A stretch of 64,000 nucleotides of DNA from a virus (IMGVR_UViG_2740892559_000001:6625-70624); one strand, 5' to 3'; shown: positions 1 to 56,810, numbered from the stretch's first letter. Numbers and translations are program-made. Notes: generated by a model not told the origin, from the sequence alone.

Positions 1-482
1 TCTTCAATCGCTGCGATCCCATCCCCTGCATCCTCAGACGGATTCGCGAACCGACAGATGGTTTTTGAGGGTGCCGTGACCGCCACACCAAATGTCATCG
101 GAATCGCAAGCACACCGTTATCGCGGTATTCCACGGTCCCGAAAGTCGCTGGAACATTCGTAATATTGTTGTACGTAACGACAGGCGAGTTCGCCATCAC
201 CGCTTCGGGGCCACTGCCGCCTTCTACCGTAACCATCCCCGAAATCGTGACCCGAAAAGACCCCTGAACATCTTCCGGCAGTTGGAAAGTGATATGGTAA
301 TCTGCGCCTCTGCCGGTTACTTCAAACGTCACGCCGGTGATGCCGTTCCCTGACACCGCGGTAATCGTAATATCCGCGTCGTCGAATCCAGTAACGGACG
401 TAATCGGCTCCGTAAACGCCACCATGAGTGGGAAGTTGCCGTTTTTTATGCCTGTGTGTCCAGAGATTGTTGCGTTTGCCAT
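1..482 (-). CDS. Ig-like beta-sandwich virion/tail protein, partial (runs off left edge)
   Basis: Manual translation from ATG at 482 is open to the edge (MANATISGHTGIKNGNFPLMVAFTEPITSVTGFDDADITITAVSG...). Big_13-like pattern; co-oriented 6 bp after the 489..2978 gene. Confidence 0.65.
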   Translation of the reverse strand, partial: MANATISGHTGIKNGNFPLMVAFTEPITSVTGFDDADITITAVSGNGITGVTFEVTGRGADYHITFQLPEDVQGSFRVTISGMVTVEGGSGPEAVMANSPVVTYNNITNVPATFGTVEYRDNGVLAIPMTFGVAVTAPSKTICRFANPSEDAGDGIAAIE

Positions 483-488
483 TTTTCT

Positions 489-2978
489 TTATACTGCTAT
501 ATCTAAGCCCACGATTCTATCGCAACCTGGAGGCGCAATAAACTGCTTTATCACCTGCCCAGCATCCGTATGTGCCTTTGTCAAATCAACGATATTTATC
601 CGCTGTGTATTTGAGCTAAGATCAGAAATATACGCGGTATTCCCGATTACAGAAAGCCCGTTTACACCCCGAGACGAATCAAAGTGGATATCCGTTGCAA
701 TTCGCTGGTTTATAGTAAAATCCACATCAGCATAGTTTGCAGGCTCTCTTGGGAAAGCAACAACAGCATTCCCACCAGAAGTATTCATAAAATAAACCAA
801 TTCATCTGTAGCATAAGATGCGAAAGTCCTTGAATTGTTACCACCAGGAATATTCGTTATATACCTGTTTATGCGTGTGGCAACTTGTCCATTCGCTGTA
901 TTCGCCGAAAAACTTTCAAAGTAATTATTATCAAAATACTTTCCATACAGAGTATTGCCATATATTGAAAGCGCAAAGACACCTGAAAGCGTTGATGGTT
1001 TAAAAAACTTACGTAATCGTGTCGCTTGTGTGTCGTGGTTGGTGTTCAAATCAAATACATGAATCGAGCTGTCTTGAGTATCCGAGATATAAAAATGATT
1101 ATTCTCAAAATCTATAGCCAAATCTGAGGGAGTGTTTACATCATCAGGTATCAAAATCCGCTTGATTGGGCTTGCTATCCCATCTTGTGTTCCCGTGCTA
1201 AAAACAAAAAGCACATGGTCATCATTCGCTGAGGAATCTCCGTGAAGCGCATACGCCAATCGCCCTCCAGTAACCTGCACTGGCACTGGTACACCGATCC
1301 ACGGGCTGGAGACACGGAAATAGACCTGGTAAGTCTCACCTTCCTCCAAATCCGGTATGATTGTTTGAATCAGATTATTCACTGGCGCGGCGACGAATTC
1401 ATGCCAATTGCCGCCAATCAGGTATTCATAACGCGTCGCGCCTGGGACATGCGGGAAAGTCACTGTGGCGTTTAGGTGTCTGGGCGTTACCTTTATGTGC
1501 TCTAAATCTATGACGGGACGGTTGGGCCCAAATCTGTTGTAGTTAATAAAATCGACACCGCTGCCTTCGTCGATCCCCCATTCGTATTCGATGGCGTGTT
1601 GGACATCGGGAAAAGAAACCACCGCAAAATTACCTTTCGGTGTCTGCTCGATCTGACCAAGGGCAGGCGGGGTACCCGCTTCGATTGTATAAGGAACACT
1701 TGACATAACGGTTTCTCCAAGGTGCGGGGCTTCCATCTCAATATTGCCCGCTGTAACGGTGAAGTTTGCGTCGGCGGGTATAACGCCATCAATTTTCGCG
1801 CCTGTTTCTATCTTCTCGATACCCAGCCCGAGTAGCAATGTTTTAGCGATCACTTCTGACGGTGGGTTGGTTATCGGGATCTCAAGGTTTATATCCACGT
1901 CTCTATAAAGATGTATATCGGGGACAGTGCCAAAGACAGGCGCGGCAGGCACAACATTGAAAGTAATATCCCTTTCAAGCGGATCGCCACTGCTATAAGT
2001 TGCCTCGATATGCCAGTTTTTGTTGTTCAGCAATTTCTCTGGGTGCCCTACAATTTTCACCTCGTTATCGCCAGCTCGCCAATCGTAGTTGAAATACTCC
2101 ATATCGCCGGTGACTTCGACGGTTGTCGGGTTCCCGGTGATTGCAACTGTCAGGCGATAATCTGTATTTACAACGATATTCTGATCCGCGACCATTGCGA
2201 TGGCACGCGTTACGACTGCCGCCGCGGTAAACGTCTCAGTATCGCTACCGGTATCCTCTGACCAGCCGATAGAGCCTGCATCTGCCACACCTACCAACAA
2301 AGAACTATCACTACCACTACCATCAAGGTCAACAAATTTCTGCTGGAGCGTTGCGTTAGAGACATTCCATTGGGCACGAGCAGCAGTTGTTACTGCTATA
2401 TCCGATGAATTCAACTCAAGCACAGTGCCGTCCGAAAATATGACAAAAACAGCACGGGTCGTAACACCTTGAAAAAACGTCCCTATATTCCCACTACCAG
2501 AACGGGTCAGAATAAACCTGTTTGTCCTATCGTTCCACTCGATCTGCGTAATCTGTAAATTACTGGATAGCCCACTATCCGAACCAGAGGCAAGCGTCCC
2601 CCCCGGATGGATGTTAGATCGCGCATTCTCACGCGTGTCAGCCGTCGGGTTAATAAACATGTTCAGGATTTGTCCGGTGATGCCCAGTGCTGTCATTGCA
2701 GTGAGCGAGCCAGCGGATACTGTTGGGTTACTTTCAGCAGGACGCGTAACATCACAAGTAATCGTGACATCAACATCCGCAGCATCCGTAAAATCCGCGT
2801 GATACACGGCAGAGGCTTCATCGGTCGCGCCAATAAACGTACCCCTACTCGCGCGCCATGTATATTGAAGTGTTCCTGGTGGCGTGTTCCCGTTCGCGTC
2901 CGTTACGGTCGCGTTCAAGGTAACCTGCCCCCCTTGGTCAATATTTTCGCCACCTGTCACGACTACACTCAATGCCAT
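489..2978 (-). CDS. Tail fibre/adhesin-like protein: N-terminal PKD/Ig-like, FN3-like segment, C-terminal beta-propeller
   Basis: 829 aa; VTLNATVTD..LQYTW Ig motif, ATVTFPHVPGATRYEY FN3-like motif, PSDLAIDFENNHFYISD propeller blade; lies in the tail operon. Confidence 0.6.
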   Translation of the reverse strand: MALSVVVTGGENIDQGGQVTLNATVTDANGNTPPGTLQYTWRASRGTFIGATDEASAVYHADFTDAADVDVTITCDVTRPAESNPTVSAGSLTAMTALGITGQILNMFINPTADTRENARSNIHPGGTLASGSDSGLSSNLQITQIEWNDRTNRFILTRSGSGNIGTFFQGVTTRAVFVIFSDGTVLELNSSDIAVTTAARAQWNVSNATLQQKFVDLDGSGSDSSLLVGVADAGSIGWSEDTGSDTETFTAAAVVTRAIAMVADQNIVVNTDYRLTVAITGNPTTVEVTGDMEYFNYDWRAGDNEVKIVGHPEKLLNNKNWHIEATYSSGDPLERDITFNVVPAAPVFGTVPDIHLYRDVDINLEIPITNPPSEVIAKTLLLGLGIEKIETGAKIDGVIPADANFTVTAGNIEMEAPHLGETVMSSVPYTIEAGTPPALGQIEQTPKGNFAVVSFPDVQHAIEYEWGIDEGSGVDFINYNRFGPNRPVIDLEHIKVTPRHLNATVTFPHVPGATRYEYLIGGNWHEFVAAPVNNLIQTIIPDLEEGETYQVYFRVSSPWIGVPVPVQVTGGRLAYALHGDSSANDDHVLFVFSTGTQDGIASPIKRILIPDDVNTPSDLAIDFENNHFYISDTQDSSIHVFDLNTNHDTQATRLRKFFKPSTLSGVFALSIYGNTLYGKYFDNNYFESFSANTANGQVATRINRYITNIPGGNNSRTFASYATDELVYFMNTSGGNAVVAFPREPANYADVDFTINQRIATDIHFDSSRGVNGLSVIGNTAYISDLSSNTQRINIVDLTKAHTDAGQVIKQFIAPPGCDRIVGLDIAV

Positions 2979-3003
2979 CTACTTACCCTCTGAACTGAAG
3001 AAA

Positions 3004-3033
3004 CCCCCTAAATCCCCCTTATCAGGGGGACTT
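3004..3033. repeat. REP-like palindrome CCCCCTAAATCCCCCTTATCAGGGGGACTT
   Basis: Intergenic hairpin CCCCCT-TATC-AGGGGG resembling a widespread REP class. Confidence 0.5.
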
Positions 3034-3039
3034 ACTCTT

Positions 3040-6000
3040 CTATTTACCCTCTGCTGAAATTGCATTCTGAATTTCTGTTATCTGTGCCTGGATTTCTTCT
3101 TCTGTCATATCCTTGTACAGCCAATCCAGCCGTTTGCGTTCAGGGTTCACCGACCATCGACCGCCACGGTTGTTCTGTAACAGGATATTGAAATACTCGT
3201 GATACATCAGTGAGACCCGTTCTTTTGAGTACTGGACAGCCTGATGCCGGCAATCTTTTGGGGAAATCTGGTCTATATTTTCCAAACACCACACCATGTG
3301 ATCGAAATTCTGTGTCCGCCAACCTGTTTGACCATCTACTACCCAGTCCATCGGCGCGCCCCAGTTCGATGTGATATGCGGTGTCCCACAGAAAAGCGAT
3401 TCCACACCGGACCCCAGAAACGGCTCAAGATAGATGCTCGGGCAGACGTGCGCCATCGCGTTCGCGTAAATATCGCTCCGGGTCGCAATATCCGCGACAC
3501 CTACAAACTCAAGCTGCGGCGGAATCTCTAAACCGCATTGCTCTAACCGTCCAACACCCGCGGCAATTAGCCGAGTATTCGTATACTTCGCGAGTTGAAA
3601 CACATCGTGCAAGCCTTTACAGATATTGATCCGCCCAACAAAGCAGATATAATCATCCTTCTTTTCTTTGTATTCAAAGTGATCAAAATCAAAGAAATTC
3701 GGGATCACAACAGAATTCCGATCCGGTACTGTGTACTGCATCCGATTATATTGCGAAGAGATAAACTCGTTATATTCACAGTCCGGGTATTTCTCCGCAA
3801 TGAAATAGTTGACATCCGCTTTGCCGCGTTCAAAGTGCAGCTTCGGGCTGCTCTGATAGACACGGTTTTCAGAGAACGCATCTGGGTAACCGATAGAAGG
3901 CTCAACAATATGCACTGGTAGATCCGAAAGTGCTTCGCAGAGTGCCAAGTGACCGAGTCCATAGAACGCAAGGATAAAATCATCTGCTTGCGCACGTTTA
4001 CGGACTTCAGGCTCAGTGTTTTCGGCGTACGCTTTGAAAACAGGATCATCCATCCCATGCTCCGGCACCACAAAATAATCTGAAGAACCGTAGTGTTGTT
4101 CAAGGATTTTGTTATCGTAGACGGTAACGTGTTCAGTGCATGGCACAGTTGAATCCGCGTGTCCGTAGTAGATAATCCGATGCCCAAGATTTTTCATGGC
4201 GCGACACCACTTAAAGATCCGCTGCACAAAAGCACACGCGAAATCTTCTTTGCCGGTCGCGTAAGGCACTTCAAAGACGTGGAAAGTTTTGCAGACAGGC
4301 GGTGTGTAGAAATTGAATTCATCAACCCCACTTTGCGCAGCAGTGATAGATGGCAACACTTTCGGTCTATCCTTGATAAGGATCCGCTCCATGTGTTGAA
4401 CTCGGATGGAAGCGTTTGCTGTGCCGTCTATACCGTAACAGTCTCCTACCTCACACATTTTACGGAAGAAATCCTCATCCTTAACATCTTCACACACTAA
4501 CTTACCGCCATCGGACAACAGCTCTACATAGTTTTCCAAAAAATATAATTGGTCAGAAGGTTCATGCGTCGCATCGTCTATAATGATGTCGAAGCCGTCC
4601 GGGTATTCCGCTTTCAGAAACGCTATCGTTGCAGGCTTATACGCGTCGATTTTATGGAAAGCCGATTTCTCGTTGAGTTCACCTACATAAGTGATGAGAT
4701 CCAAGCCGACAACCTGTTCTACAAGCTCTGATTCCTGAAACGCCTCCATAGAACCTTCACCAAACAGGCTCACGCCGATCTCCAGGACCCGTAGCGGTCG
4801 TTTCTTACGGAATACCATCGACTCGAAAATCATATCGTAAAACTTGCCGTACTGGTGACCCTTTGGATGCTGTTTGTCCGATCGCGTACCTATCAACTTA
4901 TCCGAAATGGATTGTGAATCAGTTACCTGTGGCGGTTCATGGAACGTCAACGCCTCGTAGAAATCGTCGTAATACTTCTCAAAATCTTTCTGCTCAGGTC
5001 CGTGGTCGTCCGGCACGATATGTGCGACGTAGCCCTCTTTATCCAGGGTCTTGTCCCGCGCAATGAATTCCGATTCATAGTTGTAAAAGTGGAAGCTACC
5101 GAGTTTTTTTCTCAGATCAGAGACCTCTTGATGCGCGGATTCCCACATCGCAATCAAGAATTCGTCCTGATAACAGGTTTTATAGAATTTCTTGATATGC
5201 GCTGCGAGCGAGTGTTTCACCGGCAGCATAAAGAGTTGTGTAGAGATGACTGGGCGATCGGTTTCATACTTCGGATGTACGGGTCTTTTATTTTCTATCC
5301 AATGCTCTAATGCATAAAAACATCGTAACTCTTGTCCAAACAGATCCTCGTCAGCGAAAAAAGGTATCCCCGCCGCAAGACAAACCCCATGCACCCAGAT
5401 CCGGTACTGATCGCCGGTATACGAACCCATGAACCGCTTGATCGCCGACGGGTTTTCAAAGGCTTTCAGTTTATCGTACCAGTAGAATTTATCACCCGCT
5501 GTGCAGACAAACGCATCGGAATCGGCAATAAGCCATCGCGCCGTCTCGATATTATCCTCGAGGCACATAAACTTTTTGCCGTAGTGCGGGTGCTTAACTT
5601 TATCCGATTGTGGGAACGCAATATCCATTCGACGGATAAACTGCTTAGGCACTTGGAACGCTTCAAAGACTTCCGAAACCGCGTCGTAGACAGCGTCCTC
5701 GACATGGAAATAGATACCGACACCGCGCTCGGCTAAATCCGTATTGCGTATCAAGGACATCGCCGCCCAGACGGCACCTTTTGCGTGGACATCCTTCAGC
5801 CGTTGCGAATTCGCAGGTGTCAGTGTCGCCGAGTCGATAGCAGAATGGAACAACGCTATCGAAACAGCAACTTCCGTATCCGTGATTTCGTAGTTGGGAT
5901 ACTCTACGACCGGTAGCCTCGTAATATGCGGTTTATGTTTTTCTATATTTCCTTGCGGTTCGGTGAGGTCGGTTGGTCGTTTGATGTCTCTCTCCGTAGA

Positions 6001-6045
6001 TCCGCGCTCCATTACATTACGCGCTACAGTTTTTTGATTTATCAT
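3040..6045 (-). CDS. Three-domain fusion: putative GT-A-like domain, class I SAM methyltransferase, GT4 (GT-B) glycosyltransferase
   Basis: 1001 aa; VLEIGV and FDIIIDDATH..DQ..L..GG.LVCEDV (sugar O-methyltransferase type); FVGRINICKG and PSIYLEPF..VESLFCGTP (GT4); N-terminal LIADSD DxD-like motif is weaker; AGGAG RBS 7 nt before ATG. Confidence 0.8.
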   Translation of the reverse strand: MINQKTVARNVMERGSTERDIKRPTDLTEPQGNIEKHKPHITRLPVVEYPNYEITDTEVAVSIALFHSAIDSATLTPANSQRLKDVHAKGAVWAAMSLIRNTDLAERGVGIYFHVEDAVYDAVSEVFEAFQVPKQFIRRMDIAFPQSDKVKHPHYGKKFMCLEDNIETARWLIADSDAFVCTAGDKFYWYDKLKAFENPSAIKRFMGSYTGDQYRIWVHGVCLAAGIPFFADEDLFGQELRCFYALEHWIENKRPVHPKYETDRPVISTQLFMLPVKHSLAAHIKKFYKTCYQDEFLIAMWESAHQEVSDLRKKLGSFHFYNYESEFIARDKTLDKEGYVAHIVPDDHGPEQKDFEKYYDDFYEALTFHEPPQVTDSQSISDKLIGTRSDKQHPKGHQYGKFYDMIFESMVFRKKRPLRVLEIGVSLFGEGSMEAFQESELVEQVVGLDLITYVGELNEKSAFHKIDAYKPATIAFLKAEYPDGFDIIIDDATHEPSDQLYFLENYVELLSDGGKLVCEDVKDEDFFRKMCEVGDCYGIDGTANASIRVQHMERILIKDRPKVLPSITAAQSGVDEFNFYTPPVCKTFHVFEVPYATGKEDFACAFVQRIFKWCRAMKNLGHRIIYYGHADSTVPCTEHVTVYDNKILEQHYGSSDYFVVPEHGMDDPVFKAYAENTEPEVRKRAQADDFILAFYGLGHLALCEALSDLPVHIVEPSIGYPDAFSENRVYQSSPKLHFERGKADVNYFIAEKYPDCEYNEFISSQYNRMQYTVPDRNSVVIPNFFDFDHFEYKEKKDDYICFVGRINICKGLHDVFQLAKYTNTRLIAAGVGRLEQCGLEIPPQLEFVGVADIATRSDIYANAMAHVCPSIYLEPFLGSGVESLFCGTPHITSNWGAPMDWVVDGQTGWRTQNFDHMVWCLENIDQISPKDCRHQAVQYSKERVSLMYHEYFNILLQNNRGGRWSVNPERKRLDWLYKDMTEEEIQAQITEIQNAISAEGK
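5949..6028 (-). repeat. GTAG-tagged dispersed element R1, copy 1 (in frame inside the 3040..6045 CDS)
   Basis: Shares GTAGCGCGTAATGTAATGG...CTCACCGAACCGCAAGGAAA ends with copies at 32.7, 33.4, 35.05, 36.4 and 47.7 kb. Confidence 0.85.
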
Positions 6046-6055
6046 CTATATTCTC

Positions 6056-7909
6056 CTAAGAAGAAGACTCCAGAGTCGTTACGCGATCTGTTAATCCCGA
6101 TACAAGGGAAGTCAAATTTCTAATATGGTACTGAACACCTTTCACATTTGTTTTTATCGTATTCGCAGCACTATCAATCTCAAGAAATGCCATCTTGCCT
6201 AATTCGAGAACACCTGGCGTTTCAGAACCAGATAAAGTTGTAGCGGATTCACTGAAAAACTGCGAGATATGCGAAAAGTTCAGCGTGCCGTCAGAGCCTG
6301 GCGCACCAACACCTGTTGGCCCTTTTCCGGTTGCCCCGGTGATGCCGGTACCGCGTAGATCATCAGGCGTTATATTCGCCACACGCCCTTTAATCGTTGC
6401 ACCTGTGATCCCCGTGCCAACAAGATCATCAACCGTTGCAGTAACTTGCCTACCCTTAACCGTTGCCCCTGTGATCCCTGTACCAACAAGAGGTGCTGCA
6501 TCAACGCTACGCCCTTTGACGGTCGCCCCTGTGATCCCCGTGCCGACAAGAGGTGCTGTATCGACTCTACGCCCCCTGACCGTCGCGCCTGTGATACCAG
6601 TTCCCACAACAGCGTTCCCAGCTCTCCCCTTAAACGTCGCACCTGTGATGCCGGTTCCCACAACTGCATTCCCAGCTCTACCTTTAGTCGTTGCGCCTGT
6701 GATGCCGGTTCCGACAAGATGGGCAGCGTCAACTCTACGTCCTCTGACCGTAGCACCCGTGATCCCCGTCCCGACTTCAGCATTCCCTGCCCGTCCTTTT
6801 GTAGTCGCGCCTGTGATCCCCGTGCCTCTCAATGAATTGACAGTTGCATTAACCCGTCTGCCTTTGACCGTTGCCCCTGTAATGCCCGTGCCGACGAGTG
6901 AGTTTCCAACATTCGCTTGTCTACCTTTTGTTGTCGCACCTGTGATGCCGGTTCCCACAACTGCATTCCCAGCTCTACCTTTAGTCGTTGCGCCTGTGAT
7001 CCCTGTACCAACAAGAGGTGCTGCATCAACTCTACGTCCGCGGACGGTAGCACCCGTGATACCGGTTCCCACAACAGCGTTTCCGGCTCTGCCTTTTGTT
7101 GTGGTTCCTGTGATGCCCGTACCAACAAGATGTGCTGCATCGACGCTACGTCCGCGGACGGTCGCGCCTGTGATGCCGGTTCCGACAACTGCATTCCCAG
7201 CTCTACCTTTAGTCGTTGCACCCGTAATCCCAGTGCCGCGCAAACTATTGACAGTTGCATTAACCCGTCTACCTTTAACGGTCGCGCCTGTGATGCCCGT
7301 GCCAATAAGAGAATTCCCAACGTTAGCTTGCCGACCCTTAACGGTCGCGCCTGTGATCCCCGTGCCAACGAGCGAATTCCCAGCGTTAACTTCTCTGCCC
7401 TTGACAGTGGCACCTGTAATCCCCGTGCCAACCAGATCGTCAACTGTTGCAGTAACTTCTCGACCTTTGACGGTAGCACCCGTAATCCCAGTACCAACTA
7501 AATCGTCAACAGTTGCGGTAACTTGCCTACCCTTAACCGTAGCACCCGTAATCCCGGTGCCACGTTCACCTACGCCTGTCGGTCCTATCCCTGTTGAACC
7601 TCGCCTGAAAACAACGAAATCTGTATAAATTTCAAAGTTGATCGTTTTCTTAGATTTTTTTGTTTCGCCATTTTCCTCCCACTCCGCAACAAGCACCAGG
7701 CGTGTTTGTGTCTCTTGTGTGACATTCGCAATCCTATATCGCAATTCGTTTCTAACGATTTTCGTTTGCGCAGCCACAAATTGCGAAGGCGGTGTCTCAA
7801 GTGTAATCGTTGCACCAATTGGATCCCTAAGAAACTCATAGATATTATGTATTGTGCCAACCTTACTCGCTTGCACATGCTGGATGGGAATTGGAAACCA
7901 TTCTCTCAT
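6056..7909 (-). CDS. Repeat-rich fibre-like virion protein
   Basis: 617 aa; 21 copies of GTGITG(A/T)T followed by variable 6-14 aa spacers; C-terminal LTDRVTTLES coil; lies in the tail operon. Confidence 0.7.
   Translation of the reverse strand: MREWFPIPIQHVQASKVGTIHNIYEFLRDPIGATITLETPPSQFVAAQTKIVRNELRYRIANVTQETQTRLVLVAEWEENGETKKSKKTINFEIYTDFVVFRRGSTGIGPTGVGERGTGITGATVKGRQVTATVDDLVGTGITGATVKGREVTATVDDLVGTGITGATVKGREVNAGNSLVGTGITGATVKGRQANVGNSLIGTGITGATVKGRRVNATVNSLRGTGITGATTKGRAGNAVVGTGITGATVRGRSVDAAHLVGTGITGTTTKGRAGNAVVGTGITGATVRGRRVDAAPLVGTGITGATTKGRAGNAVVGTGITGATTKGRQANVGNSLVGTGITGATVKGRRVNATVNSLRGTGITGATTKGRAGNAEVGTGITGATVRGRRVDAAHLVGTGITGATTKGRAGNAVVGTGITGATFKGRAGNAVVGTGITGATVRGRRVDTAPLVGTGITGATVKGRSVDAAPLVGTGITGATVKGRQVTATVDDLVGTGITGATIKGRVANITPDDLRGTGITGATGKGPTGVGAPGSDGTLNFSHISQFFSESATTLSGSETPGVLELGKMAFLEIDSAANTIKTNVKGVQYHIRNLTSLVSGLTDRVTTLESSS
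6329..7561 (-). repeat. Intragenic tandem repeat (about 54-66 bp units) encoding GTGITGAT(V/T)(K/R)GR
   Basis: 21 units counted in the translation. Confidence 0.95.
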
Positions 7910-7914
7910 TTTAC

Positions 7915-8096
7915 TTGCTAAAAAATGGGGAAAATGCTATACTATAAGGAAGGTAGTGGGAAGGGATGGAACCCCTTCCCGTGCCAAGTATTGAAAAATC
8001 ACAGAATCCAATCCGGTTTTCGCATTGGCATTTTTATTTTAACACCTTCCTGTAGAAATGTCAAGCGAGGTCCCCAAACCTATAGGAGCTTGACAT
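7915..8096 (+). promoter_or_regulatory. Sigma70 promoter plus structured leader of GIY-YIG cassette 1
   Basis: TTGCTA(7915)-17 bp-TATACT(7938) with TG extension; hairpins GGGAAGGG/CCCTTCCC (7958-7980) and ATGTCAAGC/GCTTGACAT (8058-8096, overlapping AGGAG); second copy at 28937-29115. Confidence 0.75.
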
Positions 8097-49524: not shown

Positions 49525-49539
49525 ATTAAGGAAAGCATC

Positions 49540-49986: not shown

Positions 49987-50012
49987 CAGTCAACTTCAAA
50001 AAAGGAAAAATC

Positions 50013-50354
50013 ATGAATGAAATGGAACACCAACTGGTCGACAAAACGCTTGAGAGTATCCACCAGCTTGAAATGAAAATCGTTGAGCTCAGCGGCGAAA
50101 TTAAGTCGTTGCGAGAACACAATGATGATCAACATAAAGCAATGTCCGAGAAGATCGAGCAAAGCATCAAGACAGATACCGATCGGCTGAACACGCATTC
50201 CAAAGAGATAGACGATCACCGCGAACGGCTGGCGACACTTGAAGAGTGGAAAAAGCAGTTTGAAGAGGCGATCCGAAACCGACTCATAACTTCGCAGAGC
50301 ATATCGTCCATCGCTGCCGTGGTCATCGCGTATTTGCTCAGTAAATTTCTCTAA
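50013..50354 (+). CDS. Coiled-coil protein with C-terminal TM (XhlA/holin-like)
   Basis: Heptad coil followed by a hydrophobic C-terminus. Confidence 0.55.
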   Translation: MNEMEHQLVDKTLESIHQLEMKIVELSGEIKSLREHNDDQHKAMSEKIEQSIKTDTDRLNTHSKEIDDHRERLATLEEWKKQFEEAIRNRLITSQSISSIAAVVIAYLLSKFL

Positions 50355-50365
50355 AGGGGATTCTC

Positions 50366-50560
50366 ATGGATGCCAAACTCAAAAAGATTCAGATAACGCC
50401 TGTCAAATTTGATAAAGAAGGCGACATCAAAGACCCGGAATTCGCCACGTTGACCCTTGAAGTGCCGATGGATTCCACCGGTCAGCGTGCCGCAATTATA
50501 GAGCTGTGTGAGCTGCTCGACCAAGAATGGGTCACGCTTGAAATTGGAGGTAAGACCTAA
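50366..50560 (+). CDS. Small hypothetical protein
   Basis: 64 aa, in operon. Confidence 0.55.
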   Translation: MDAKLKKIQITPVKFDKEGDIKDPEFATLTLEVPMDSTGQRAAIIELCELLDQEWVTLEIGGKT

Positions 50561-50562
50561 AA

Positions 50563-50823
50563 ATGGAAGGTTTGAAAGCGTGTATGCGCTATGTCTTCAT
50601 TTTGTCTGCCATGATTATCGTCGGCATATTTGCAACGGACTGGTGGTTCACTAGGGACGGCAATCTGCTCAATGATACGCTCGTCGGCATCATGATGGGC
50701 GCGCCTCTGGGGTGGTTTGGGGCGTTTGTGACGTTCTACACCACCGAGAAAGTGACGCAGATACTCAACAAGAAAGAGGAGGTAGCAAATGGAGGTGATC
50801 CACCGCCGAGCGCAGATCATTAA
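50563..50823 (+). CDS. Two-TM holin-like protein
   Basis: Two TM helices and a charged C-terminus. Confidence 0.55.
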   Translation: MEGLKACMRYVFILSAMIIVGIFATDWWFTRDGNLLNDTLVGIMMGAPLGWFGAFVTFYTTEKVTQILNKKEEVANGGDPPPSADH

Positions 50824-51274
50824 CGCCCTTGAGGGACTCTTTGAGACGCTCAAGACACCTGTAGACGAATCCGGGTTTCCGATACAGGTGAAGACCGTCC
50901 AGAAACGGTTTGTCCACTGGACGGCATTAGACCAACAAGACGCGTTGCCGGCGATCCTGTTGACGTATGGCGACAACGGGAGCGCACCGGACTCACCTGT
51001 TGTCGGTTACATCGACGAAAACTTTCCGATCGCGGTCACTGCGGTCATGAAAGAGGAACCGCATCTGAAAGACCTGACCGATCAAGCGTCCGATATGCAC
51101 TATTCGATCGGTCGGCTTATTAACAGTAACCCAACGCTGGGTGTCGAGGGTGTCAACCCCGAAAAGACACGCATTGTGGGGTGGAGAGGTAGTGAAGGTA
51201 CTATCTCCAAATTTGAGATAATCCGTTTCAGACTCGTTGTGGTGCATCGGTATCACGCGACAGAAAATGTGTAA
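50789..51274 (+). CDS. Tail terminator/completion protein
   Basis: RRAQIINAL..., LPAILLTYG pattern; 161 aa. Confidence 0.7.
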   Translation: MEVIHRRAQIINALEGLFETLKTPVDESGFPIQVKTVQKRFVHWTALDQQDALPAILLTYGDNGSAPDSPVVGYIDENFPIAVTAVMKEEPHLKDLTDQASDMHYSIGRLINSNPTLGVEGVNPEKTRIVGWRGSEGTISKFEIIRFRLVVVHRYHATENV

Positions 51275-51368
51275 CAGTTACCAGTAGCCAGTACCCAGTG
51301 GCCAGTTAAAGAGGTTTTTTAATTGGAAACTGGAAACTGGAAACTTCAAAAAAAAGGAGTTAAGACTT

Positions 51369-52175
51369 ATGTATTTCCAGAAGACACGACTTTGGTTTTG
51401 GGCAGCGACGATCGTTGCGCTTGTTCTGCTCATCGGTGCGCTTGCACATGCCCAATTGCCAAGCAACCCAGACGAAACTTCCGTCTCTATTGCGATCAAC
51501 AAAATTGTCGACACAACCGGTTGGGGCGGCTCGTTCGCCGTGCCATACAAACTTAACGATAATGTTTCTGGCTATTTCGCTACCGCGGCACAAGGCGGCG
51601 ATCTGATACGCGGCCGCTATCACGCCGAAGTGTCGTACGCTTTCGGTGCGCTCGATGTAACACTCTATACCGATGGCACTTATAAGGGACCGGATGTCGC
51701 GAATCTCGGACGACAGGCAGATTTAGGCGTAACCATCGGAACGAACCGTCCGGGTGGCGATGTTGAAATCGGTATTTTTGGCAGGAACGGCGGCGCATTT
51801 GCGAAACCCAACGCCTTTGATGACCTATCGGCGAAAGGGTATGACGAAGCCGTCCTGGAAACGATTGACGGACTCACCACCTTAAATCCTGCACCGACGG
51901 GGCTGAGTTTTGGCGATCGGAACTCTGTGAACCTGTTGGTCTCGCTGCAGAAAAACGTTGGTGATATTGGCGCGTCTTTGAAACTGATGCCAGAACTTGT
52001 CGGCAGCACGGACGATGCGGTTGACCAAGCCATTTTGAACCTGCACACCGATTACCGGCTTTCAGAGAAGGTGTCGTTGGGTGTAGGTGTGGATATTGGC
52101 TGCCAGCGGTTTCGTGGGTCTGGTGATATTGAGCAAGAAGTCGCCGGGCTGCTAACGCTAAATCTCGCATTTTAG
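51369..52175 (+). CDS. Putative outer-membrane beta-barrel protein (moron)
   Basis: Signal peptide, amphipathic strands, terminal Phe (LTLNLAF). Confidence 0.6.
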   Translation: MYFQKTRLWFWAATIVALVLLIGALAHAQLPSNPDETSVSIAINKIVDTTGWGGSFAVPYKLNDNVSGYFATAAQGGDLIRGRYHAEVSYAFGALDVTLYTDGTYKGPDVANLGRQADLGVTIGTNRPGGDVEIGIFGRNGGAFAKPNAFDDLSAKGYDEAVLETIDGLTTLNPAPTGLSFGDRNSVNLLVSLQKNVGDIGASLKLMPELVGSTDDAVDQAILNLHTDYRLSEKVSLGVGVDIGCQRFRGSGDIEQEVAGLLTLNLAF

Positions 52176-52244
52176 GAGGAGTCACCAGTTACCAGTAACC
52201 AGTGGCCAGTTAAAAGAGGGTTTCGGTATATCCGTAGTCTTTCT

Positions 52245-52279
<35 letters not shown>

Positions 52280-52286
52280 TAAACGC

Positions 52287-52487
52287 ATGGATAAGCAAGG
52301 ACATTTGATAAAGACTCCCCAAGAGCTCCTCATTGAACCTGCTCCCCGCAAGGTGACGATCAGAGAATATCCAAGCCCCGATTATCAACGCCGATGGCAG
52401 ATTGAGAAAGAGCAGCGCGAGCAGGCACAGAACTCTATCAAACCGAAACCGAGACGGAAGCGTGGTCGGAAGTTTAGATCGCGATAA
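52287..52487 (+). CDS. Small basic hypothetical protein
   Basis: 66 aa flanked by heptamer repeats. Confidence 0.4.
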   Translation: MDKQGHLIKTPQELLIEPAPRKVTIREYPSPDYQRRWQIEKEQREQAQNSIKPKPRRKRGRKFRSR

Positions 52488-52606
52488 AAGACTTATGGGT
52501 TATCAGTCACCAGTGGCCAGTTACGAGTTACCAGTTAACTCTCACTGCGAGGCACTCTTTTCTGGTAACTGGAAACTGGTAACTGGAAACTCTAAAAGGG
52601 AATATC

Positions 52607-53227
52607 ATGATTAAGAAACTGCTTTACATCATCACTGTTTTGACGATACTCACGGGTGCGTCATTGCTTTTTAATACGCATACCGCGGATACATCTGGGG
52701 ACGATGACCCCTCGCTGATGGATGAGACACCGCCCGAAGGCATGTTTGATAACGAAGAACAACCGGTTTATATCTTCGCGCACTTGGCATATAAACACGA
52801 TGTGAGAGCGGTCGATACATACTTTCTTGAGATACAAGACCACCCCGGTGAGGGGATTGATGAGATTGTGGGGGGTTTCGTCGCGACGAACTTCCACGCG
52901 TATGTGAAGTTGCGTGACGTATCCGTTCCAACGAGCTGCGACACAACCGAGGCACACAGCAGACCGCATATCGAAATAGACCGCGAACGGGAAAGATGGG
53001 CAAAAGGCATGGACTTTGTGCAACGGTTGCTGATGCTAAACCAGTCGTTGCGGCTATCGAACATAACGGTCGAAGGCGAAATACTTGTCTGCGATGTCCA
53101 GTTTTTTCTCGGTGGGGCGTTCCATGATCTGACGACAACCCTCTCACGAGACGGTTTCGCGAGACCCACCATCGATGGCTATGCATGGAACTGGGGCGCA
53201 GAGCAATTGGAACCGCACGAACAGTAA
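52607..53227 (+). CDS. Membrane-anchored SNase/thermonuclease-fold protein, degenerate active site
   Basis: VRAVDTY (cf. VIDGDT), VKLRDVSVP (cf. VRLIGIDTP), LSRDGFAR (cf. LVRNGLAR). Confidence 0.5.
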   Translation: MIKKLLYIITVLTILTGASLLFNTHTADTSGDDDPSLMDETPPEGMFDNEEQPVYIFAHLAYKHDVRAVDTYFLEIQDHPGEGIDEIVGGFVATNFHAYVKLRDVSVPTSCDTTEAHSRPHIEIDRERERWAKGMDFVQRLLMLNQSLRLSNITVEGEILVCDVQFFLGGAFHDLTTTLSRDGFARPTIDGYAWNWGAEQLEPHEQ

Positions 53228-53281
53228 CCAGTTACCAGTCACCAGTCACCAGTAACAAGAGTCCTCTTAACTGGCCACTGG

Positions 53282-53470
53282 TTACTGGTCACTGTTAACT
53301 TCTTTACCTTCTTTTTCATCTTCTTCTTCAAGATACAGCTCTTTGAGTGCTTGAACATCTTCTGCGTCGAGTGGAATGCCGCCAGACTCGACAACTTTGC
53401 CGGTTCCAAGATGTTGCCAACCTGCAGGTGTGAACATGTAGATGTTTCGATCTTCTTTTTCTTTTTTCAT
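53282..53470 (-). CDS. Small acidic hypothetical protein
   Basis: 62 aa, last gene of the minus-strand cluster. Confidence 0.45.
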   Translation of the reverse strand: MKKEKEDRNIYMFTPAGWQHLGTGKVVESGGIPLDAEDVQALKELYLEEEDEKEGKEVNSDQ

Positions 53471-53493: not shown

Positions 53494-54057
53494 CTAATAC
53501 TCCTCAGCAAACATAACAACGAGAACACGGTAAGCGTTGAGGGGGTCCGCCGCGCGCGCCTTCATAGACGCGTCCTCGTAGTAATTAATTTGCCAATAGA
53601 TTTTCGGGATACCGTCAAGTTCGATACACCCAAAATCATGCTCACCGTAGGGATCGTTGTCCTGGGTGAAGTTATCGAAAGCGATAATCTTGTCAAAAAG
53701 CACCGCCTTCGTCTCCGCCGCAAGGTTCTCGACGGTCGAAGTCATGAACGCCCTGCCATCGGGTCGCGGCACCATGAAGACGGCTTTTCGGAAAAGGTCA
53801 TTTCTCAGTTGAATGCTTTTAGCCAGCGCGTCCGGATTATCAACTCGGTCATAGCGGATTTCATAGACAGCGAGTCTCGACACCAGATTAACTACCTCTG
53901 TGAAGTCGAGCGTGTCAACGTTTTGTATCCCGCGCGCCTTAAGCTTAGCCCTGAGCTCTTCAAGGCTATATTGCTCGGCTTCAAGTTTATATTTCTCGAC
54001 AGCAGATGCTGGCTGCTGTTCTGTTTTCGATAAGAAGTTCAAACCATTTTTTGACAT
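53494..54057 (-). CDS. DUF3768-family protein with N-terminal extension
   Basis: FDNFTQDNDPYGEHDFG...YWQINYY...RVLVVMFAEEY. Confidence 0.8.
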   Translation of the reverse strand: MSKNGLNFLSKTEQQPASAVEKYKLEAEQYSLEELRAKLKARGIQNVDTLDFTEVVNLVSRLAVYEIRYDRVDNPDALAKSIQLRNDLFRKAVFMVPRPDGRAFMTSTVENLAAETKAVLFDKIIAFDNFTQDNDPYGEHDFGCIELDGIPKIYWQINYYEDASMKARAADPLNAYRVLVVMFAEEY

Positions 54058-54069
54058 TTGTAAATCCTC

Positions 54070-54444
54070 CTAATCCCATCCGAACCGCTTGCGCCAGTTA
54101 AATATCGTTTTTTCGGAAGCATTGACGACTTTGGCAGTGTGTTTGGATGCGTCTCCCTTCCGCATCCCAGCAGCACGGGCATCGTGGTACGTGGATTTCG
54201 CAAGTGCGATCAGGTCGCTACTGTCACGTTCAAGGTCGCGGGTGGCTTTTCTGCGGAGGCTTCTGTCGCCGGTGAAGCTGAACGCATCGAGAGCCTTGTC
54301 CCATTCGCCTTTCGCTTGCCATTGGTGGACGGTATTCTCGCGGACACCGACCGCATCGGCAATCTCCTTAACAGTTTTATCCGGTTCGTTTATGAAGAGA
54401 TAGGCAACCGCGCCCATCTTGTAATAGTTAAAATTCTTGGGCAT
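54070..54444 (-). CDS. Tandem HTH DNA-binding protein
   Basis: VKEIADAVGVRENTVHQWQAKGEWD and TAKVVNASEKTIFNWRKRFGWD. Confidence 0.75.
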   Translation of the reverse strand: MPKNFNYYKMGAVAYLFINEPDKTVKEIADAVGVRENTVHQWQAKGEWDKALDAFSFTGDRSLRRKATRDLERDSSDLIALAKSTYHDARAAGMRKGDASKHTAKVVNASEKTIFNWRKRFGWD

Positions 54445-54479
54445 CTGTCCTCCATTATTTTACCATATCCGCCATAAAT

Positions 54480-54773
54480 CTAAAATTCACAGTTGTTCCA
54501 AGCCTCGCGCAAGTTCTCAACTGTCAACTGTTCTTTGAACGCTGCGACGGCTTCCGCTCTCGGCATATCGCTATATTTCGCACCGAACGCAATGAAATCG
54601 GCAATCCGTGCCAACATCGCTTGTTCTGCATCGTCCGCGGGTTGTGCCAGCACTAACACCCGTAACGCTTTCTGGCACTGTGCTTCGGTAAGGTGTCGAA
54701 ACAAGGATTTCAGTTGCCGAAAAGCATCGTCATCGAGTCGGTTATCCTCAACCTCAACTACAACTTTTTTCAT
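54480..54773 (-). CDS. Hypothetical protein
   Basis: Helical protein; GGAGG RBS before MKKVVV. Confidence 0.55.
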   Translation of the reverse strand: MKKVVVEVEDNRLDDDAFRQLKSLFRHLTEAQCQKALRVLVLAQPADDAEQAMLARIADFIAFGAKYSDMPRAEAVAAFKEQLTVENLREAWNNCEF

Positions 54774-54777
54774 CTGT

Positions 54778-54990
54778 TTATCCTCCAATAAAGGTAGCGT
54801 TATTTTTCTCCCGGACTTCGATGGCTATGAGTTTTGCCAGCAATTCTCTGGCTTCATCATAACCGAGCCGGTGCGCGTTGTTAACGCCACGTCGCTGGAG
54901 CAGGTAGATAACCTTTCGGTGGTTTTCGACCTCTATTGGACGCGGCGGTGTCGGTTTGGGTTTCGTGAAATAGAAATTGAGAGACTTCAT
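54778..54990 (-). CDS. Hypothetical protein
   Basis: Start MKSLNF with GAGG RBS. Confidence 0.5.
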   Translation of the reverse strand: MKSLNFYFTKPKPTPPRPIEVENHRKVIYLLQRRGVNNAHRLGYDEARELLAKLIAIEVREKNNATFIGG

Positions 54991-54991
54991 T

Positions 54992-55348
54992 TCAATATTC
55001 CTCTGAAAGCATGATAACGAGGACGCGGTAGGCGTTAAGTTTATCCTCTGCCCCGAATTCCATATCGGCATCCTCATAGTAGTCTATCTTCCAAAAGACC
55101 TTATGCGTTTCATCTTCATCCGTCATCAGATTAGAAACCGAGACGGTGACACTCCCAAAATCGTGATCCCCGTAGGGATCGTTGTCTTCGGTAAAGTTAT
55201 CGAACTCGGCGATCTCCTTGTAAATCCAAGCACACACCGCGCTGCCGAGACTCGCCACGCCGGGGGTCATGACGGCTTTGCCGTCGGGGTGGGGCGCGAA
55301 CATGACAACTTTTCGGAAGGCATCATTTTTCGCTTGAATAGTGTCCAT
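54992..55348 (-). CDS. DUF3768-family protein (second paralog)
   Basis: FDNFTEDNDPYGDHDFG...FWKIDYY...RVLVIMLSEEY. Confidence 0.8.
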   Translation of the reverse strand: MDTIQAKNDAFRKVVMFAPHPDGKAVMTPGVASLGSAVCAWIYKEIAEFDNFTEDNDPYGDHDFGSVTVSVSNLMTDEDETHKVFWKIDYYEDADMEFGAEDKLNAYRVLVIMLSEEY

Positions 55349-55407
55349 CAGTATATTTCCTTTTGTTTGCGACAAGGCGAGGGTTTGAGACCTCGCCCTG
55401 CTGGTTT

Positions 55408-55986: not shown

Positions 55987-56294
55987 CGTTGACCTCCTGG
56001 GAACCATTCTTTTGTGTAGGGGACAGTATTCCGAGCGCAACCGCCCCAGGGCCGGATAAGACCGCATCGCTGGCACCGTTGCCACATCAGCCGTTGATGG
56101 CGTTTGATGTCGGTATCGGTTTTGGGGATGCCGGTGAAGTCGGGGGCACCGCAACTTGAGGTTGCAGTGCCGTTTGGTGAAATGTGGACCCATCGCTTTT
56201 TCACAGAATCCCATTGCGGGGATGCGATCCAAGCGGATTTGAGATACGCCCGCGCCAGTTCAGTGAGCCCGGCAAGAGACATCAGCTTTTTCAT
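55983..56294 (-). CDS. Hypothetical Cys/His protein
   Basis: 103 aa, CQRC; ATGA coupling to the upstream gene. Confidence 0.55.
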   Translation of the reverse strand: MKKLMSLAGLTELARAYLKSAWIASPQWDSVKKRWVHISPNGTATSSCGAPDFTGIPKTDTDIKRHQRLMWQRCQRCGLIRPWGGCARNTVPYTKEWFPGGQR

Positions 56295-56659
56295 GCTGTA
56301 CCTCCTTTGAGGGCAAACTGGAGTTGCGAGCCGTAGCCCTGCCGAAACGCGATCTTGCGATCACGATAATAGCCGCGCAGGGTTTCCAAGAGCGCATCTC
56401 TGGAAAAGGAAGCGCATTCTTGACGGACGGTGACGAAGATTTCATCAAAGATAAAATAGCCGTTGCCACCAGGGTAGTATTCGGTCAATTTATGGAGAGC
56501 TGCCAGAACGGGGCAGACCGGAACCGGGGGCTCCGATGGCGGCGGTTCAGGAAGGCGTTCAACCCGCGTGCGGATATGGCGAGTTGGGAAGCCTTTGGGT
56601 TGGATCGCAATTGCACGCGTGCCGTTTTTGCCGTGCAATGTTACAGTAATCATAATCAT
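56291..56659 (-). CDS. Hypothetical protein, first gene of the minus-strand early-like operon
   Basis: 122 aa, GAGG RBS, Pro linker, C-terminal wHTH-like segment. Confidence 0.6.
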   Translation of the reverse strand: MIMITVTLHGKNGTRAIAIQPKGFPTRHIRTRVERLPEPPPSEPPVPVCPVLAALHKLTEYYPGGNGYFIFDEIFVTVRQECASFSRDALLETLRGYYRDRKIAFRQGYGSQLQFALKGGTA

Positions 56660-56671
56660 ACCTCATAAAGT

Positions 56672-56772
56672 TTGACTTTCGCCGCTGCATGAGATATAAT
56701 TAAAGCAAGCGGCGCAAGCCGTGGTTTTTCCGCGGCGGGGGACTCATTTAGCGGTGAACCCCTGCCGTTTTT
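56672..56772 (+). ncRNA. Candidate antisense sRNA (about 56707-56772) with its own promoter
   Basis: TTGACT-17 bp-TATAAT (56672-56700); CGGC-GCAA-GCCG GNRA hairpin; 9-bp terminator stem with a G.U pair followed by TTTTT. Confidence 0.65.
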
Positions 56773-56781
56773 CTTATATAT

Positions 56782-56810
56782 ATTATACCACAAAAACCAA
56801 TAAAAGTCAA
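56782..56810 (-). promoter_or_regulatory. Sigma70 promoter of the 56659-53282 operon
   Basis: TTGACT-17 bp-TATAAT with TG extension. Confidence 0.8.

What the first reader, a model, noticed from the sequence alone, without database searches (positions are those of the whole stretch)
1..56810. Rearranged but intact siphovirus-type particle system with signs of domestication (GTA-like or phage-plasmid)
Seen: head, neck and tail genes appear open and full length. The tail genes are inverted and divergent from the head genes around a control region at 37.1-37.65 kb, and the tail operon is split by 12 kb of host-type genes. Three structural operons share one promoter motif. About 20 heptamer hairpins and 6 R1 elements sit between genes and break none. 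No integrase, repressor, helicase/primase or polymerase was recognised in the window. Established: GTAs such as RcGTA are host-regulated, replication-less head-tail clusters, often split across loci. Inference: this is a long-resident, selected particle-producing locus in a Poribacteria-like symbiont. A normal prophage or phage-plasmid with replication genes outside the window remains possible, and parA plus a TerS candidate with a DNA-binding domain argue for that alternative.
Basis: partly seen in the sequence, partly recalled or inferred. Interest (0 to 1): 0.8.

Follow-up and report, generated by a model that had tools for sequence, protein, structure and literature searches.

The report
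Poribacteria phage-plasmid, not a GTA
The window is most of a roughly 90 kb circular element of a sponge-symbiont (Candidatus Poribacteria) that is both a long-tailed phage and a low-copy plasmid; it is an intact mobile element carrying secreted "eukaryote-like" cargo genes, not a domesticated gene-transfer agent.

Summary
The observations mostly hold. Head, neck and tail genes are intact and under purifying selection (ω 0.06-0.23). The tail module is inverted against the head module. A 12-kb cargo block splits the tail operon. Three operons share a ~95-nt promoter block.

The GTA-like reading fails. Just outside the window lie a tyrosine recombinase and a second ParA-RHH pair. A 9.8-kb contig of the same MAG (C104) carries a Rep_3 initiator with four perfect 22-bp iterons and the same lineage-specific heptamer hairpins. 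In a 98,274-bp relative, the C104 equivalent bridges the two ends of the window's contig, which closes a ~90-kb circle.

Relatives with both capsid and Rep_3 genes occur as separate 94-145 kb replicons. One sits beside a 5.08-Mb chromosome, and two are circularly permuted relative to each other. The capsid gene was found in only 4 of 36 congeneric species. Self-directed packaging is suggested by a TerS-like protein that co-varies with an 11-bp repeat array upstream of it. Two homing endonucleases and a Tad1 anti-Thoeris gene also fit an active phage.

Verdict: a new phage-plasmid lineage of Candidatus Poribacteria. The kind is known; the host phylum appears new for it.

The parts
37656..38318 (+). 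TerS-like winged-helix protein, directly upstream of TerL
   Evidence: Weak MarR hit. Its position is conserved in all relatives. Identity to relatives is only 29-68% while TerL is 75-91%. ω is 0.31-0.41.
37506..37662 (+). Array of about 14 x 11-bp repeats (GAAAACCTTGC/GAAAACTTTAT) abutting the TerS-like start codon; candidate pac or TerS-binding site
   Evidence: TRF result. Each relative has an array at the same place but with a different repeat unit.
38322..39764 (+). Large terminase
   Evidence: phrog_2, 4.4e-24; ω about 0.12.
39865..42162 (+). Portal with a C-terminal extension
   Evidence: phrog_3753, 1e-13, plus phrog_24776; ω 0.06-0.09.
42512..43681 (+). Prohead protease candidate
   Evidence: Weak phrog_80 hit; conserved in all relatives.
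43786..44319 (+). Scaffold candidate (assigned by position only)
   Evidence: No family hit. Conserved between protease and MCP in all relatives.
44392..45807 (+). Major capsid protein
   Evidence: phrog_3922, 1.9e-11. Has 12 IMG/VR and 14 genome relatives.
47312..47689 (+). Tad1 (Thoeris anti-defence 1) homologue in the late operon
   Evidence: phmmer against PDB 8kbb, E 1.8e-11; phrog_2428, 8e-27.
48204..48710 (+). Neck / tail-completion protein
   Evidence: phrog_26, 6.7e-7.
31158..32657 (-). Tail tube protein of the fused double-domain T5 pb6 / P74-26 type
   Evidence: AF2 model with pLDDT 78 and pTM 0.80. Foldseek top hits: 8ed0 at 1.4e-12, then 7qg9_A, 5ngj and 9iny. PF18906 is precomputed on about a third of its homologues.
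26095..29007 (-). Tape measure protein (970 aa)
   Evidence: phrog_167, phrog_1107 and phrog_28. The orthologue in the ENA relative carries TMP_3.
13986..26094 (-). Strain-specific 12-kb cargo insertion. It holds ParA#1 (24688-25401), an RHH protein (24429-24686), a Big_5 protein (21998-22888), LRR/cohesin/dockerin/CTD proteins (17682-21962 and 15556-17634) and a LamG protein (14530-15288).
   Evidence: The block is absent between TMP and the 262-aa gene in G038, G004 and the ENA 94-kb contig.
8989..13985 (-). Distal tail genes of 262, 490 and 752 aa
   Evidence: They directly follow TMP in relatives and are homologous to the post-TMP genes of G035:C1. No family hits, so function is assigned by position.
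489..7909 (-). Fibre and accessory genes: a 617-aa protein with about 18 x 20-aa repeats, a 1001-aa protein with a C-terminal GT1 domain, and an 829-aa protein with a weak NHL hit
   Evidence: A homologue of the 1001-aa protein lies on C123.
8098..8952 (+). GIY-YIG/NUMOD3 homing endonuclease, antisense within the tail operon
   Evidence: NUMOD3 1e-36 and GIY-YIG 2.7e-6.
29504..30307 (+). Second GIY-YIG homing endonuclease
   Evidence: phrog_314, 5e-46. Its first 275 nt are 80% identical to 8098-8372. Relatives carry such genes at other sites.
37350..37460 (+). Late promoter block for the head operon: 3 x ATGTATTGCTT, a weak -35, then TTATAAT
   Evidence: Conserved in L005 and L007; L010 has a variant 11-mer.
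35270..35380 (-). The same promoter block for the tube/TMP operon
14075..14375 (-). Third copy of the promoter block, in front of the distal tail genes. Found only in this element.
   Evidence: Relatives G002, G003 and G004 have only two copies.
36779..37072 (-). RHH/CopG-like regulator, first gene of the divergent operon
   Evidence: phrog_876, 6e-7; conserved in relatives.
42144..53302 (+). About 10 intergenic hairpins built of (CCAGTNN)n / (NNACTGG)n heptamer arms. Unpaired arms lie at 31128-35518.
   Evidence: dG is -23 to -53 kcal/mol, z -2.5 to -8. They are 12-fold enriched on C177 and 41-fold on C104 over the rest of the genome.
5942..47808 (.). R1 leader cassettes, with cores at 5964(-), 32683(-), 33358(-), 33384(-), 35063(-), 36394(-) and 47782(+)
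   Evidence: The same cassette precedes about 47 genes on other contigs of the genome.
53494..55375 (-). Two DUF3768 genes and an HTH protein with Terminase_5 / HTH_23 hits

Best explanation
The window is about 70% of a circular phage-plasmid of roughly 90 kb. The element comprises contig C177 (78.7 kb), contig C104 (9.8 kb) and small gaps, and it resides in a Candidatus Poribacteria sponge symbiont.

Maintenance (inferred from gene content)
- A Rep_3 initiator binds four 22-bp iterons on C104 and recruits the host replisome.
- Two ParA-RHH (ParF/ParG-like) partition loci segregate the copies.
- A short Xer-like tyrosine recombinase probably resolves multimers.

Virion production (genes shown; regulation inferred)
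- An unidentified activator probably binds three 11-bp repeats upstream of a TTATAAT -10 box, switching on three late operons.
- The TerS-like winged-helix protein probably recognises the 11-bp x 14 array in front of its own gene (a pac site) and hands the DNA to TerL.
- Portal, protease, scaffold candidate and capsid protein build the head.
- A T5/P74-26-type fused tube protein and a 970-aa tape measure build a long non-contractile tail.

Rearrangements
- Within one subclade the tail module was inverted to lie divergent from the head module.
- In this strain a 12-kb cargo block (a second par locus plus secreted LRR/cohesin/dockerin proteins) was inserted between the tape measure and the distal tail genes.
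- A duplicated copy of the late promoter sits in front of the displaced genes and probably drives them.

Tad1 and the homing endonucleases fit an element that still infects cells and meets relatives.
For: REPLICATION AND MAINTENANCE GENES
- Rep3_N and Rep3_C (7e-14, 2.5e-18) plus a 22-bp x 4.1 perfect iteron array on C104.
- C104 shares the lineage-specific CCAGT heptamer arrays: 1.4 per kb against 0.034 per kb in the rest of the genome.
- A tyrosine recombinase, ParA#2, an RHH protein and an 8-bp x 7 repeat lie just outside the window. ParA#1 and its RHH lie inside it.

CIRCULAR LINKAGE
- In ENA contig ctg103044_614x_c (98,274 bp), the order is: C177 right end, then C104, then C177 left end, all in one orientation.
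- A close Rep (85%) and a close tube (87%) lie on one 94,331-bp contig.
- Rep and MCP lie together on a 51,973-bp contig.
- G035 is a two-contig assembly: a 5,077,769-bp chromosome and a 139,772-bp replicon. The replicon carries Rep_3, ParA, the recombinase and a collinear head-tail module.
- The ends of G067:C1 correspond to neighbouring genes inside G035:C1, which shows circular permutation.

DISTRIBUTION AND HOST
- The capsid gene was found in 4 of 36 congeneric species and in 0 of 24 genomes of other families in the order.
- A close relative occurs in a Poribacteria single-cell genome, WGA-3G.

FUNCTIONAL STATE
- Structural genes have ω 0.06-0.23, and dS differs from gene to gene, which indicates mosaicism.
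- The tube fold matches P74-26 and T5 pb6.
- The TerS-like protein co-varies with its upstream repeat array across relatives.
- Tad1 and the homing endonucleases are present.
Against: - C177 and C104 are not physically joined in this assembly; no end overlap was found.
- No read coverage or paired-read test could be run.
- A circular assembly can also arise from permuted virion DNA, so plasmid maintenance rests on gene content only.
- IMG/VR flags three relatives as 'provirus'.
- One relative's genes lie inside a 5.5-Mb chromosome.
- No lysis genes, no CI-type repressor and no late activator were identified.
- The meaning of the '_c' suffix in the ENA contig name (circular?) is assumed, not verified.
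Confidence: 0.78

Rival explanations
1. GTA-like, host-domesticated particle locus. The head-tail genes would be kept by the host, lack autonomous replication, and package random host DNA.
For: - All structural genes are intact and under purifying selection.
- Host-type leader cassettes (R1) sit in front of several structural genes.
- Cargo genes interrupt the tail operon.
- A relative's genes are scattered in a closed chromosome, G065.
Against: - The element has a replicon, two par loci and a recombinase.
- Relatives are separate 94-145 kb replicons.
- Distribution among congeners is patchy.
- The TerS-like protein co-varies with an upstream repeat array, which implies specific packaging.
- Homing endonucleases, Tad1 and mosaic dS point to an infectious population.
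Confidence: 0.03
2. Ordinary integrated temperate prophage. The tyrosine recombinase would be the integrase, and the contig would break before the att sites.
For: - A recombinase of the phage-integrase family lies 0.9 kb outside the window.
- IMG/VR gives 'provirus' labels to relatives.
- A chromosomal copy of several genes exists in G065.
Against: - No host core gene is present on 78.7 kb, and heptamer arrays run to both contig ends.
- C104 bridges the two ends in a relative.
- The recombinase is 249 aa, consists of the catalytic domain only, and is Xer-like.
- There is no tRNA in the window.
- The chromosomal relative is scrambled. No portal or Rep_3 was found in it with the window's queries, no TMP was found in the 180-kb region examined, and TerL lies 1.2 Mb away.
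Confidence: 0.07
3. Virulent or pseudolysogenic large siphovirus that merely carries plasmid-like genes and was co-binned with its host. It would assemble as a circle because of headful packaging.
For: - Homing endonucleases are typical of lytic phages.
- One relative's contig name carries '614x', taken here as a coverage value; its format was not verified.
- No classical repressor or integrase module was found.
Against: - The Rep_3/iteron module, two ParA-RHH loci and a candidate centromere repeat have no obvious use in a strictly lytic phage.
- No own polymerase, helicase or primase was found.
- The element is present in a single-cell genome and as the second replicon of a closed MAG.
- Composition is close to the host's, and it uses the host leader cassette.
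Confidence: 0.1

Closest known systems
Phage-plasmids (P1, SSU5/pHCM2 and similar groups; 'extrachromosomal prophages' of Roux et al. 2015, PMC4533152)
   Same: A complete tailed-phage virion and packaging module shares one circular replicon of about 90-145 kb with a plasmid initiator, ParA-type partition and a tyrosine recombinase. The accessory cargo is large and variable.
   Different: - The host is an uncultured candidate phylum (Poribacteria).
- There is no detectable sequence relationship to the named groups.
- The replicon is Rep_3/iteron type, with two ParA-RHH loci.
- The tail tube is of the T5/P74-26 type.
- The cargo is dominated by secreted LRR, cohesin, dockerin, cadherin and TPR proteins.
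- Intergenic hairpins are built of lineage-specific heptamers.
RcGTA-type gene transfer agents
   Same: Intact head-tail genes, use of host-type expression signals, and no polymerase or helicase of its own.
   Different: This element has its own replicon, partition loci, recombinase, candidate pac site and anti-defence gene. It is about 90 kb rather than about 15 kb. It sits on a separate replicon and is patchily distributed.
Siphophage T5 and Thermus phage P74-26 tails
   Same: The tube protein is a fused tandem tube-domain protein of about 500 aa with an extra beta domain. These are the best structural matches.
   Different: Sequence identity is only about 10%. The rest of the genome is not T5-like: there is no T5-type replication module.
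Sponge 'ankyphages' carrying eukaryote-like repeat proteins (recalled from memory: Jahn et al. 2019; not checked here)
   Same: A phage of sponge symbionts that carries eukaryote-like repeat proteins as cargo.
   Different: The cargo here is LRR, cohesin/dockerin, TPR and cadherin proteins with a host-type C-terminal sorting domain, not ankyrin. The vehicle is a plasmid-like episome.

Membership tests
Phage-plasmid | Complete virion and packaging gene set | tested here: met
   TerS-like, TerL, portal, protease, MCP, neck, tube, TMP and distal tail genes are all open, with ω 0.06-0.23. Lysis genes were not identified.
Phage-plasmid | Plasmid replication initiator on the same replicon | tested here: met
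   For this genome the linkage is by inference: Rep_3 and iterons are on C104, and C104 bridges C177's ends in a 98-kb relative. For relatives it is shown directly: Rep and tube share one 94-kb contig, and Rep and MCP share G035:C1.
Phage-plasmid | Partition system | tested here: met
   ParA#1 plus RHH lie in the window. ParA#2 plus RHH plus an 8-bp x 7 repeat lie in the flank. The two ParA proteins are 56% identical.
Phage-plasmid | Exists as an extrachromosomal circular replicon in the host | tested here: inconclusive
   Shown for relatives: a separate 139.8-kb contig beside a 5.08-Mb chromosome and circular permutation. Not shown for this assembly; no reads were available.
RcGTA-type gene transfer agent | No autonomous replication or maintenance genes; vertically inherited chromosomal locus | tested here: not met
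   Rep_3, two par loci and a recombinase are present. The capsid gene was found in 4 of 36 congeners. Relatives are episomal.
RcGTA-type gene transfer agent | Packages random host DNA in heads too small for its own genes | not testable with these tools
   There is only indirect evidence against it: the TerS-like protein co-varies with its upstream repeat array.
Rep_3 iteron-type replicon | WH1-WH2 initiator with directly repeated iterons next to the gene | tested here: met
   PF01051 and PF21205 hits. Four perfect 22-bp repeats lie 500 bp upstream of rep.
T5 pb6 / P74-26-type fused tail tube protein | Tandem tube-domain fold in a single chain | tested here: met
   Foldseek: 8ed0 at 1.4e-12 and 7qg9_A at 3.3e-11, both with probability 1.00, on a model with pTM 0.80. 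The Pfam PF18906 hit is below threshold on this protein. Trimeric assembly was not tested.
Tad1 (Thoeris anti-defence 1) | Sequence homology over the whole domain to solved Tad1 proteins | tested here: met
   phmmer E 1.8e-11 to 8kbb over residues 15-123. Ligand binding was not tested.

The most novel reading that the evidence does not exclude
Poribacteria would harbour a widespread, undescribed family of 90-145 kb phage-plasmids. These would act as the main shuttle for secreted eukaryote-like symbiosis proteins between symbiont strains.

The family would also have its own regulatory grammar:
- lineage-specific heptamer hairpins after almost every late gene;
- 11-bp arrays that co-vary with the TerS-like protein;
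- a host-wide ~100-nt promoter/leader cassette that the element has copied.

Chromosomal, scattered remnants such as those in G065 could be the starting material for true domestication.
Probability: 0.3. Interest if true: 0.7.

Novelty: new member of a known kind. Interest (0 to 1): 0.55.

Why it matters
Poribacteria are uncultured, abundant sponge symbionts with no genetic tools. Full-text searches found no paper describing plasmids or phage-plasmids for them.

A defined Rep_3/iteron replicon, par loci and a packaging site give candidate parts for vectors.

The element also shows how leucine-rich-repeat, cohesin/dockerin and cadherin-type secreted proteins could move between symbiont strains.

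For phage biology it offers three clean natural examples:
- an operon split by cargo, with a duplicated late promoter in front of the displaced genes;
- a TerS-like protein that co-varies with its candidate pac array;
- intergenic hairpins built of lineage-specific heptamers.

Tried and rejected
- Rfam at gathering thresholds found no RNA family in the window, and ARAGORN found no tRNA.
- There is no terminal repeat on C177 and no exact end overlap between C177, C104, C141 or any other contig.
- phmmer against the PDB gave nothing for the tube or the 752-aa and 490-aa tail proteins. The tube needed a fold search.
No indexed run holds the sequence (best share 0.27), and all runs are kept as contigs only.
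- The IMG/VR record holding both Rep and MCP (L013/L017) is not held as a whole record.
- DNA of the 94-kb ENA contig was not retrievable.
- PHROGs and Pfam gave no hits for most small ORFs.
- I first read heptamer arrays and R1 as shared 'domestication marks'. I rejected that: R1 is host-wide, while the heptamers are specific to the element's lineage.
- I considered a misassembly as the cause of the inversion. I rejected that because four other independent assemblies show it.

Full report
CONTEXT
The window is G000:C177:6625-70624, part of a 78,675-bp contig in a 5.38-Mb, 178-contig MAG. The MAG is 82% complete. The contig's GC (48.2% against 47.3% for the genome) and its tetranucleotide profile fall within the range of the genome's other contigs of 40 kb or more. 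It has no terminal repeat, and the window holds no tRNA.

ANNOTATION
Plus strand, 37.6-53.2 kb:
- TerS-like winged-helix protein
- TerL (phrog_2, 4e-24)
- portal
- protease
- a conserved scaffold-position gene
- MCP (phrog_3922, 2e-11)
- a Tad1 anti-Thoeris homologue (PDB 8kbb, E 1.8e-11)
- a neck protein

Minus strand, running down from 37.07 kb:
- an RHH regulator and small genes
- a 499-aa tube protein and chaperone-position genes
- a 970-aa tape measure protein (TMP)
- a 12-kb block holding ParA, an RHH protein, a Big_5 protein, two large LRR/cohesin/dockerin proteins with a FlgD_ig/T9SS-type C-terminal domain, and a LamG protein
- genes of 262, 490 and 752 aa
- a 617-aa repeat fibre, a 1001-aa protein with a GT1 domain, and an NHL protein

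Two GIY-YIG/NUMOD3 homing endonucleases lie antisense within this strand.

An AlphaFold model of the tube (pLDDT 78, pTM 0.80) best matches the P74-26 tail tube and T5 pb6 (E 1e-12 to 1e-8). These are fused double-domain tubes of long non-contractile tails, and no sheath gene was detected. 'Siphovirus-type' therefore holds.

FLANKS AND THE MISSING REPLICON
The right flank (L002) holds a phosphoribosyltransferase, a 249-aa tyrosine recombinase (PF00589, 1.4e-29), a second ParA with its RHH partner, a trypsin/dockerin protein and an ECF sigma factor. The recombinase is Xer-like and consists of the catalytic domain only. An 8-bp x 7 repeat sits upstream of this ParA. The left flank holds HEPN, DUF4268 and SNase genes. 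Neither flank carries a host core gene.

(CCAGTNN)x3 heptamer arrays number 54 in the whole genome. Of these, 23 are on C177, including both flanks, and 10 are on the 9.8-kb contig C104. C104 encodes a Rep_3 initiator preceded by four perfect 22-bp iterons.

LINKAGE OF C104 TO C177
A Rep homologue (85% identity) and a tube homologue (87%) lie on one 94,331-bp ENA contig. Around the Rep gene of another relative, a 98,274-bp contig named ctg103044_614x_c, the sequence order is:
- C177 75.9-77.2 kb
- C104 1.5-8.5 kb
- C177 2-545

All three are in the same orientation. C104 therefore closes C177 into a circle of about 90 kb. The assembly break falls inside a long repetitive cadherin/fn3 gene. Many relatives' contigs cluster at 86-98 kb.

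RELATIVES
- The MCP has 12 IMG/VR relatives and 14 genome relatives. Thirteen of the 14 genome hits are titled Candidatus Poribacteria, including the single-cell genome WGA-3G.
- One 51,973-bp contig holds both Rep_3 and MCP.
- G035 is a two-contig assembly: a 5,077,769-bp chromosome plus a 139,772-bp replicon. The replicon carries Rep_3, ParA, the recombinase and a collinear head, tube, TMP and distal-tail module.
- The two ends of G067:C1 (141 kb) correspond to adjacent genes inside G035:C1, which shows circular permutation.
- Among congeners, the MCP occurs in 4 of 36 species. Several closed genomes lack it, and it was found in 0 of 24 genomes from other families of the order.

REARRANGEMENTS
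The tube gene is divergent from TerL in the window, in G002, G003 and G004 (MCP 86-94% identical), and in the ENA 94-kb contig. It is collinear in G001, L012, L013 and G035:C1 (MCP 70-76%). The inversion is therefore a fixed trait of a subclade.

The 12-kb block is absent in G038, G004 and the ENA contig, where the 262-aa gene abuts TMP. G002 has an unrelated 6-kb insert at the same site. This junction looks like a hot spot for cargo insertion.

CONTROL ELEMENTS
A ~95-nt block precedes the head operon, the tube/TMP operon and the distal-tail genes. It contains three ATGTATTGCTT repeats, a poor -35 and a TTATAAT box. Relatives have only the first two copies. The third copy resembles the tube-operon copy more closely than the head-operon copy. 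I infer that it was duplicated to drive the displaced genes.

An array of about 14 x 11 bp abuts the TerS-like start codon. Every relative has such an array with a different repeat unit. The TerS-like protein is only 29-68% identical among relatives, against 75-91% for TerL. I infer a co-evolving TerS/pac pair, which implies self-directed packaging.

REPEATS
The heptamer hairpins follow most late genes (dG -23 to -53 kcal/mol). Close relatives share the CCAGT unit, and distant relatives use other heptamers. Their function is unknown.

R1 is a host-wide ~100-nt cassette with 54 core copies in the genome, 7 of them on C177. Its core, ACCGAACCGCAAGG, usually lies 12 nt before an ATG. At 5964 the cassette is read through in frame.

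SELECTION
Structural genes have ω of 0.06-0.23. dS against the same relative differs from gene to gene, for example MCP 0.43 against TerL 1.26 when compared with L005. This indicates mosaic recombination.

CONCLUSION
The element is a phage-plasmid (confidence 0.78). The GTA reading is rejected at about 0.03. Literature searches found no description of Poribacteria phage-plasmids. Roux et al. 2015 (PMC4533152) only list the first Poribacteria viruses.

EARLIER NOTES OF THIS SCAN
Other first-reader notes on this same window had already flagged the promoter block, the cargo block, R1, the homing endonucleases, Tad1 and the glycosyltransferase. I re-tested those I use here.

Noticed in passing
genome-wide; in the window at 5964, 32683, 33358, 33384, 35063, 36394 and 47782: A ~100-nt conserved cassette precedes about 50 genes across many contigs of this MAG. 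It comprises an upstream hairpin or a TTGCTT box, then GATATACGGAGAGG, a variable stretch, then CCTCACCGAACCGCAAGGAAAnTTAAAAAA, then ATG. This looks like an undescribed Poribacteria promoter/leader element. The exact core was absent from G035:C1 and from 180 kb of the G065 chromosome.
   Followed up: partly
G000 contig C79 (23.7 kb) and contig C123: The same MAG holds a second, related but scrambled element. On one contig it has TerL (66%), distal tail genes, Rep_3 (61%), a homologue of C104's winged-helix protein and a scaffold homologue. No second MCP exists in the MAG. It may be a decaying phage-plasmid or a plasmid derived from one.
   Followed up: partly
G065:C1 (OZ244563.1, 5.5-Mb chromosome), about 3.72-3.77 Mb and 4.948 Mb: Homologues of this element's genes lie inside a chromosome and are scattered. 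MCP, protease, scaffold, tube, neck and distal tail genes are scrambled at 3.7 Mb. An open TerL homologue lies 1.2 Mb away. No portal, TMP, Rep_3 or ParA was found with these queries. This is either decay or early domestication.
   Followed up: partly
window 47312-47689: A Tad1 (Thoeris anti-defence) homologue sits inside the late operon. Relatives carry TIR/ThsB-like genes near their Rep gene.
   Followed up: partly
L043 (CBDAUA010000009.1, an Arenicellales MAG): An MCP homologue at 54% identity lies on a 42-kb contig binned to a gammaproteobacterial MAG. It is either a related phage of another symbiont or a binning error.
   Followed up: no
window 13986-26094, L002:3351-5693, C141, and many chromosomal contigs: The ~300-nt C-terminal FlgD_ig/Por_Secre_tail-type domain of the cargo proteins recurs at 67-82% nucleotide identity in dozens of host genes. 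The cargo therefore carries the host's own secretion tag.
   Followed up: no
L003 (C104) 2327-2441: Further 21-22-bp direct repeats (x2.2 and x2.9) lie inside or next to the 186-aa and 327-aa winged-helix genes upstream of rep. They could be a second iteron set or a control site.
   Followed up: no
G004 (WGA-3G) C1:19728-21217: The tube homologue is split into two frames (residues 1-77 and 75-499) in the single-cell assembly. This is either a frameshift or a sequencing error.
   Followed up: no
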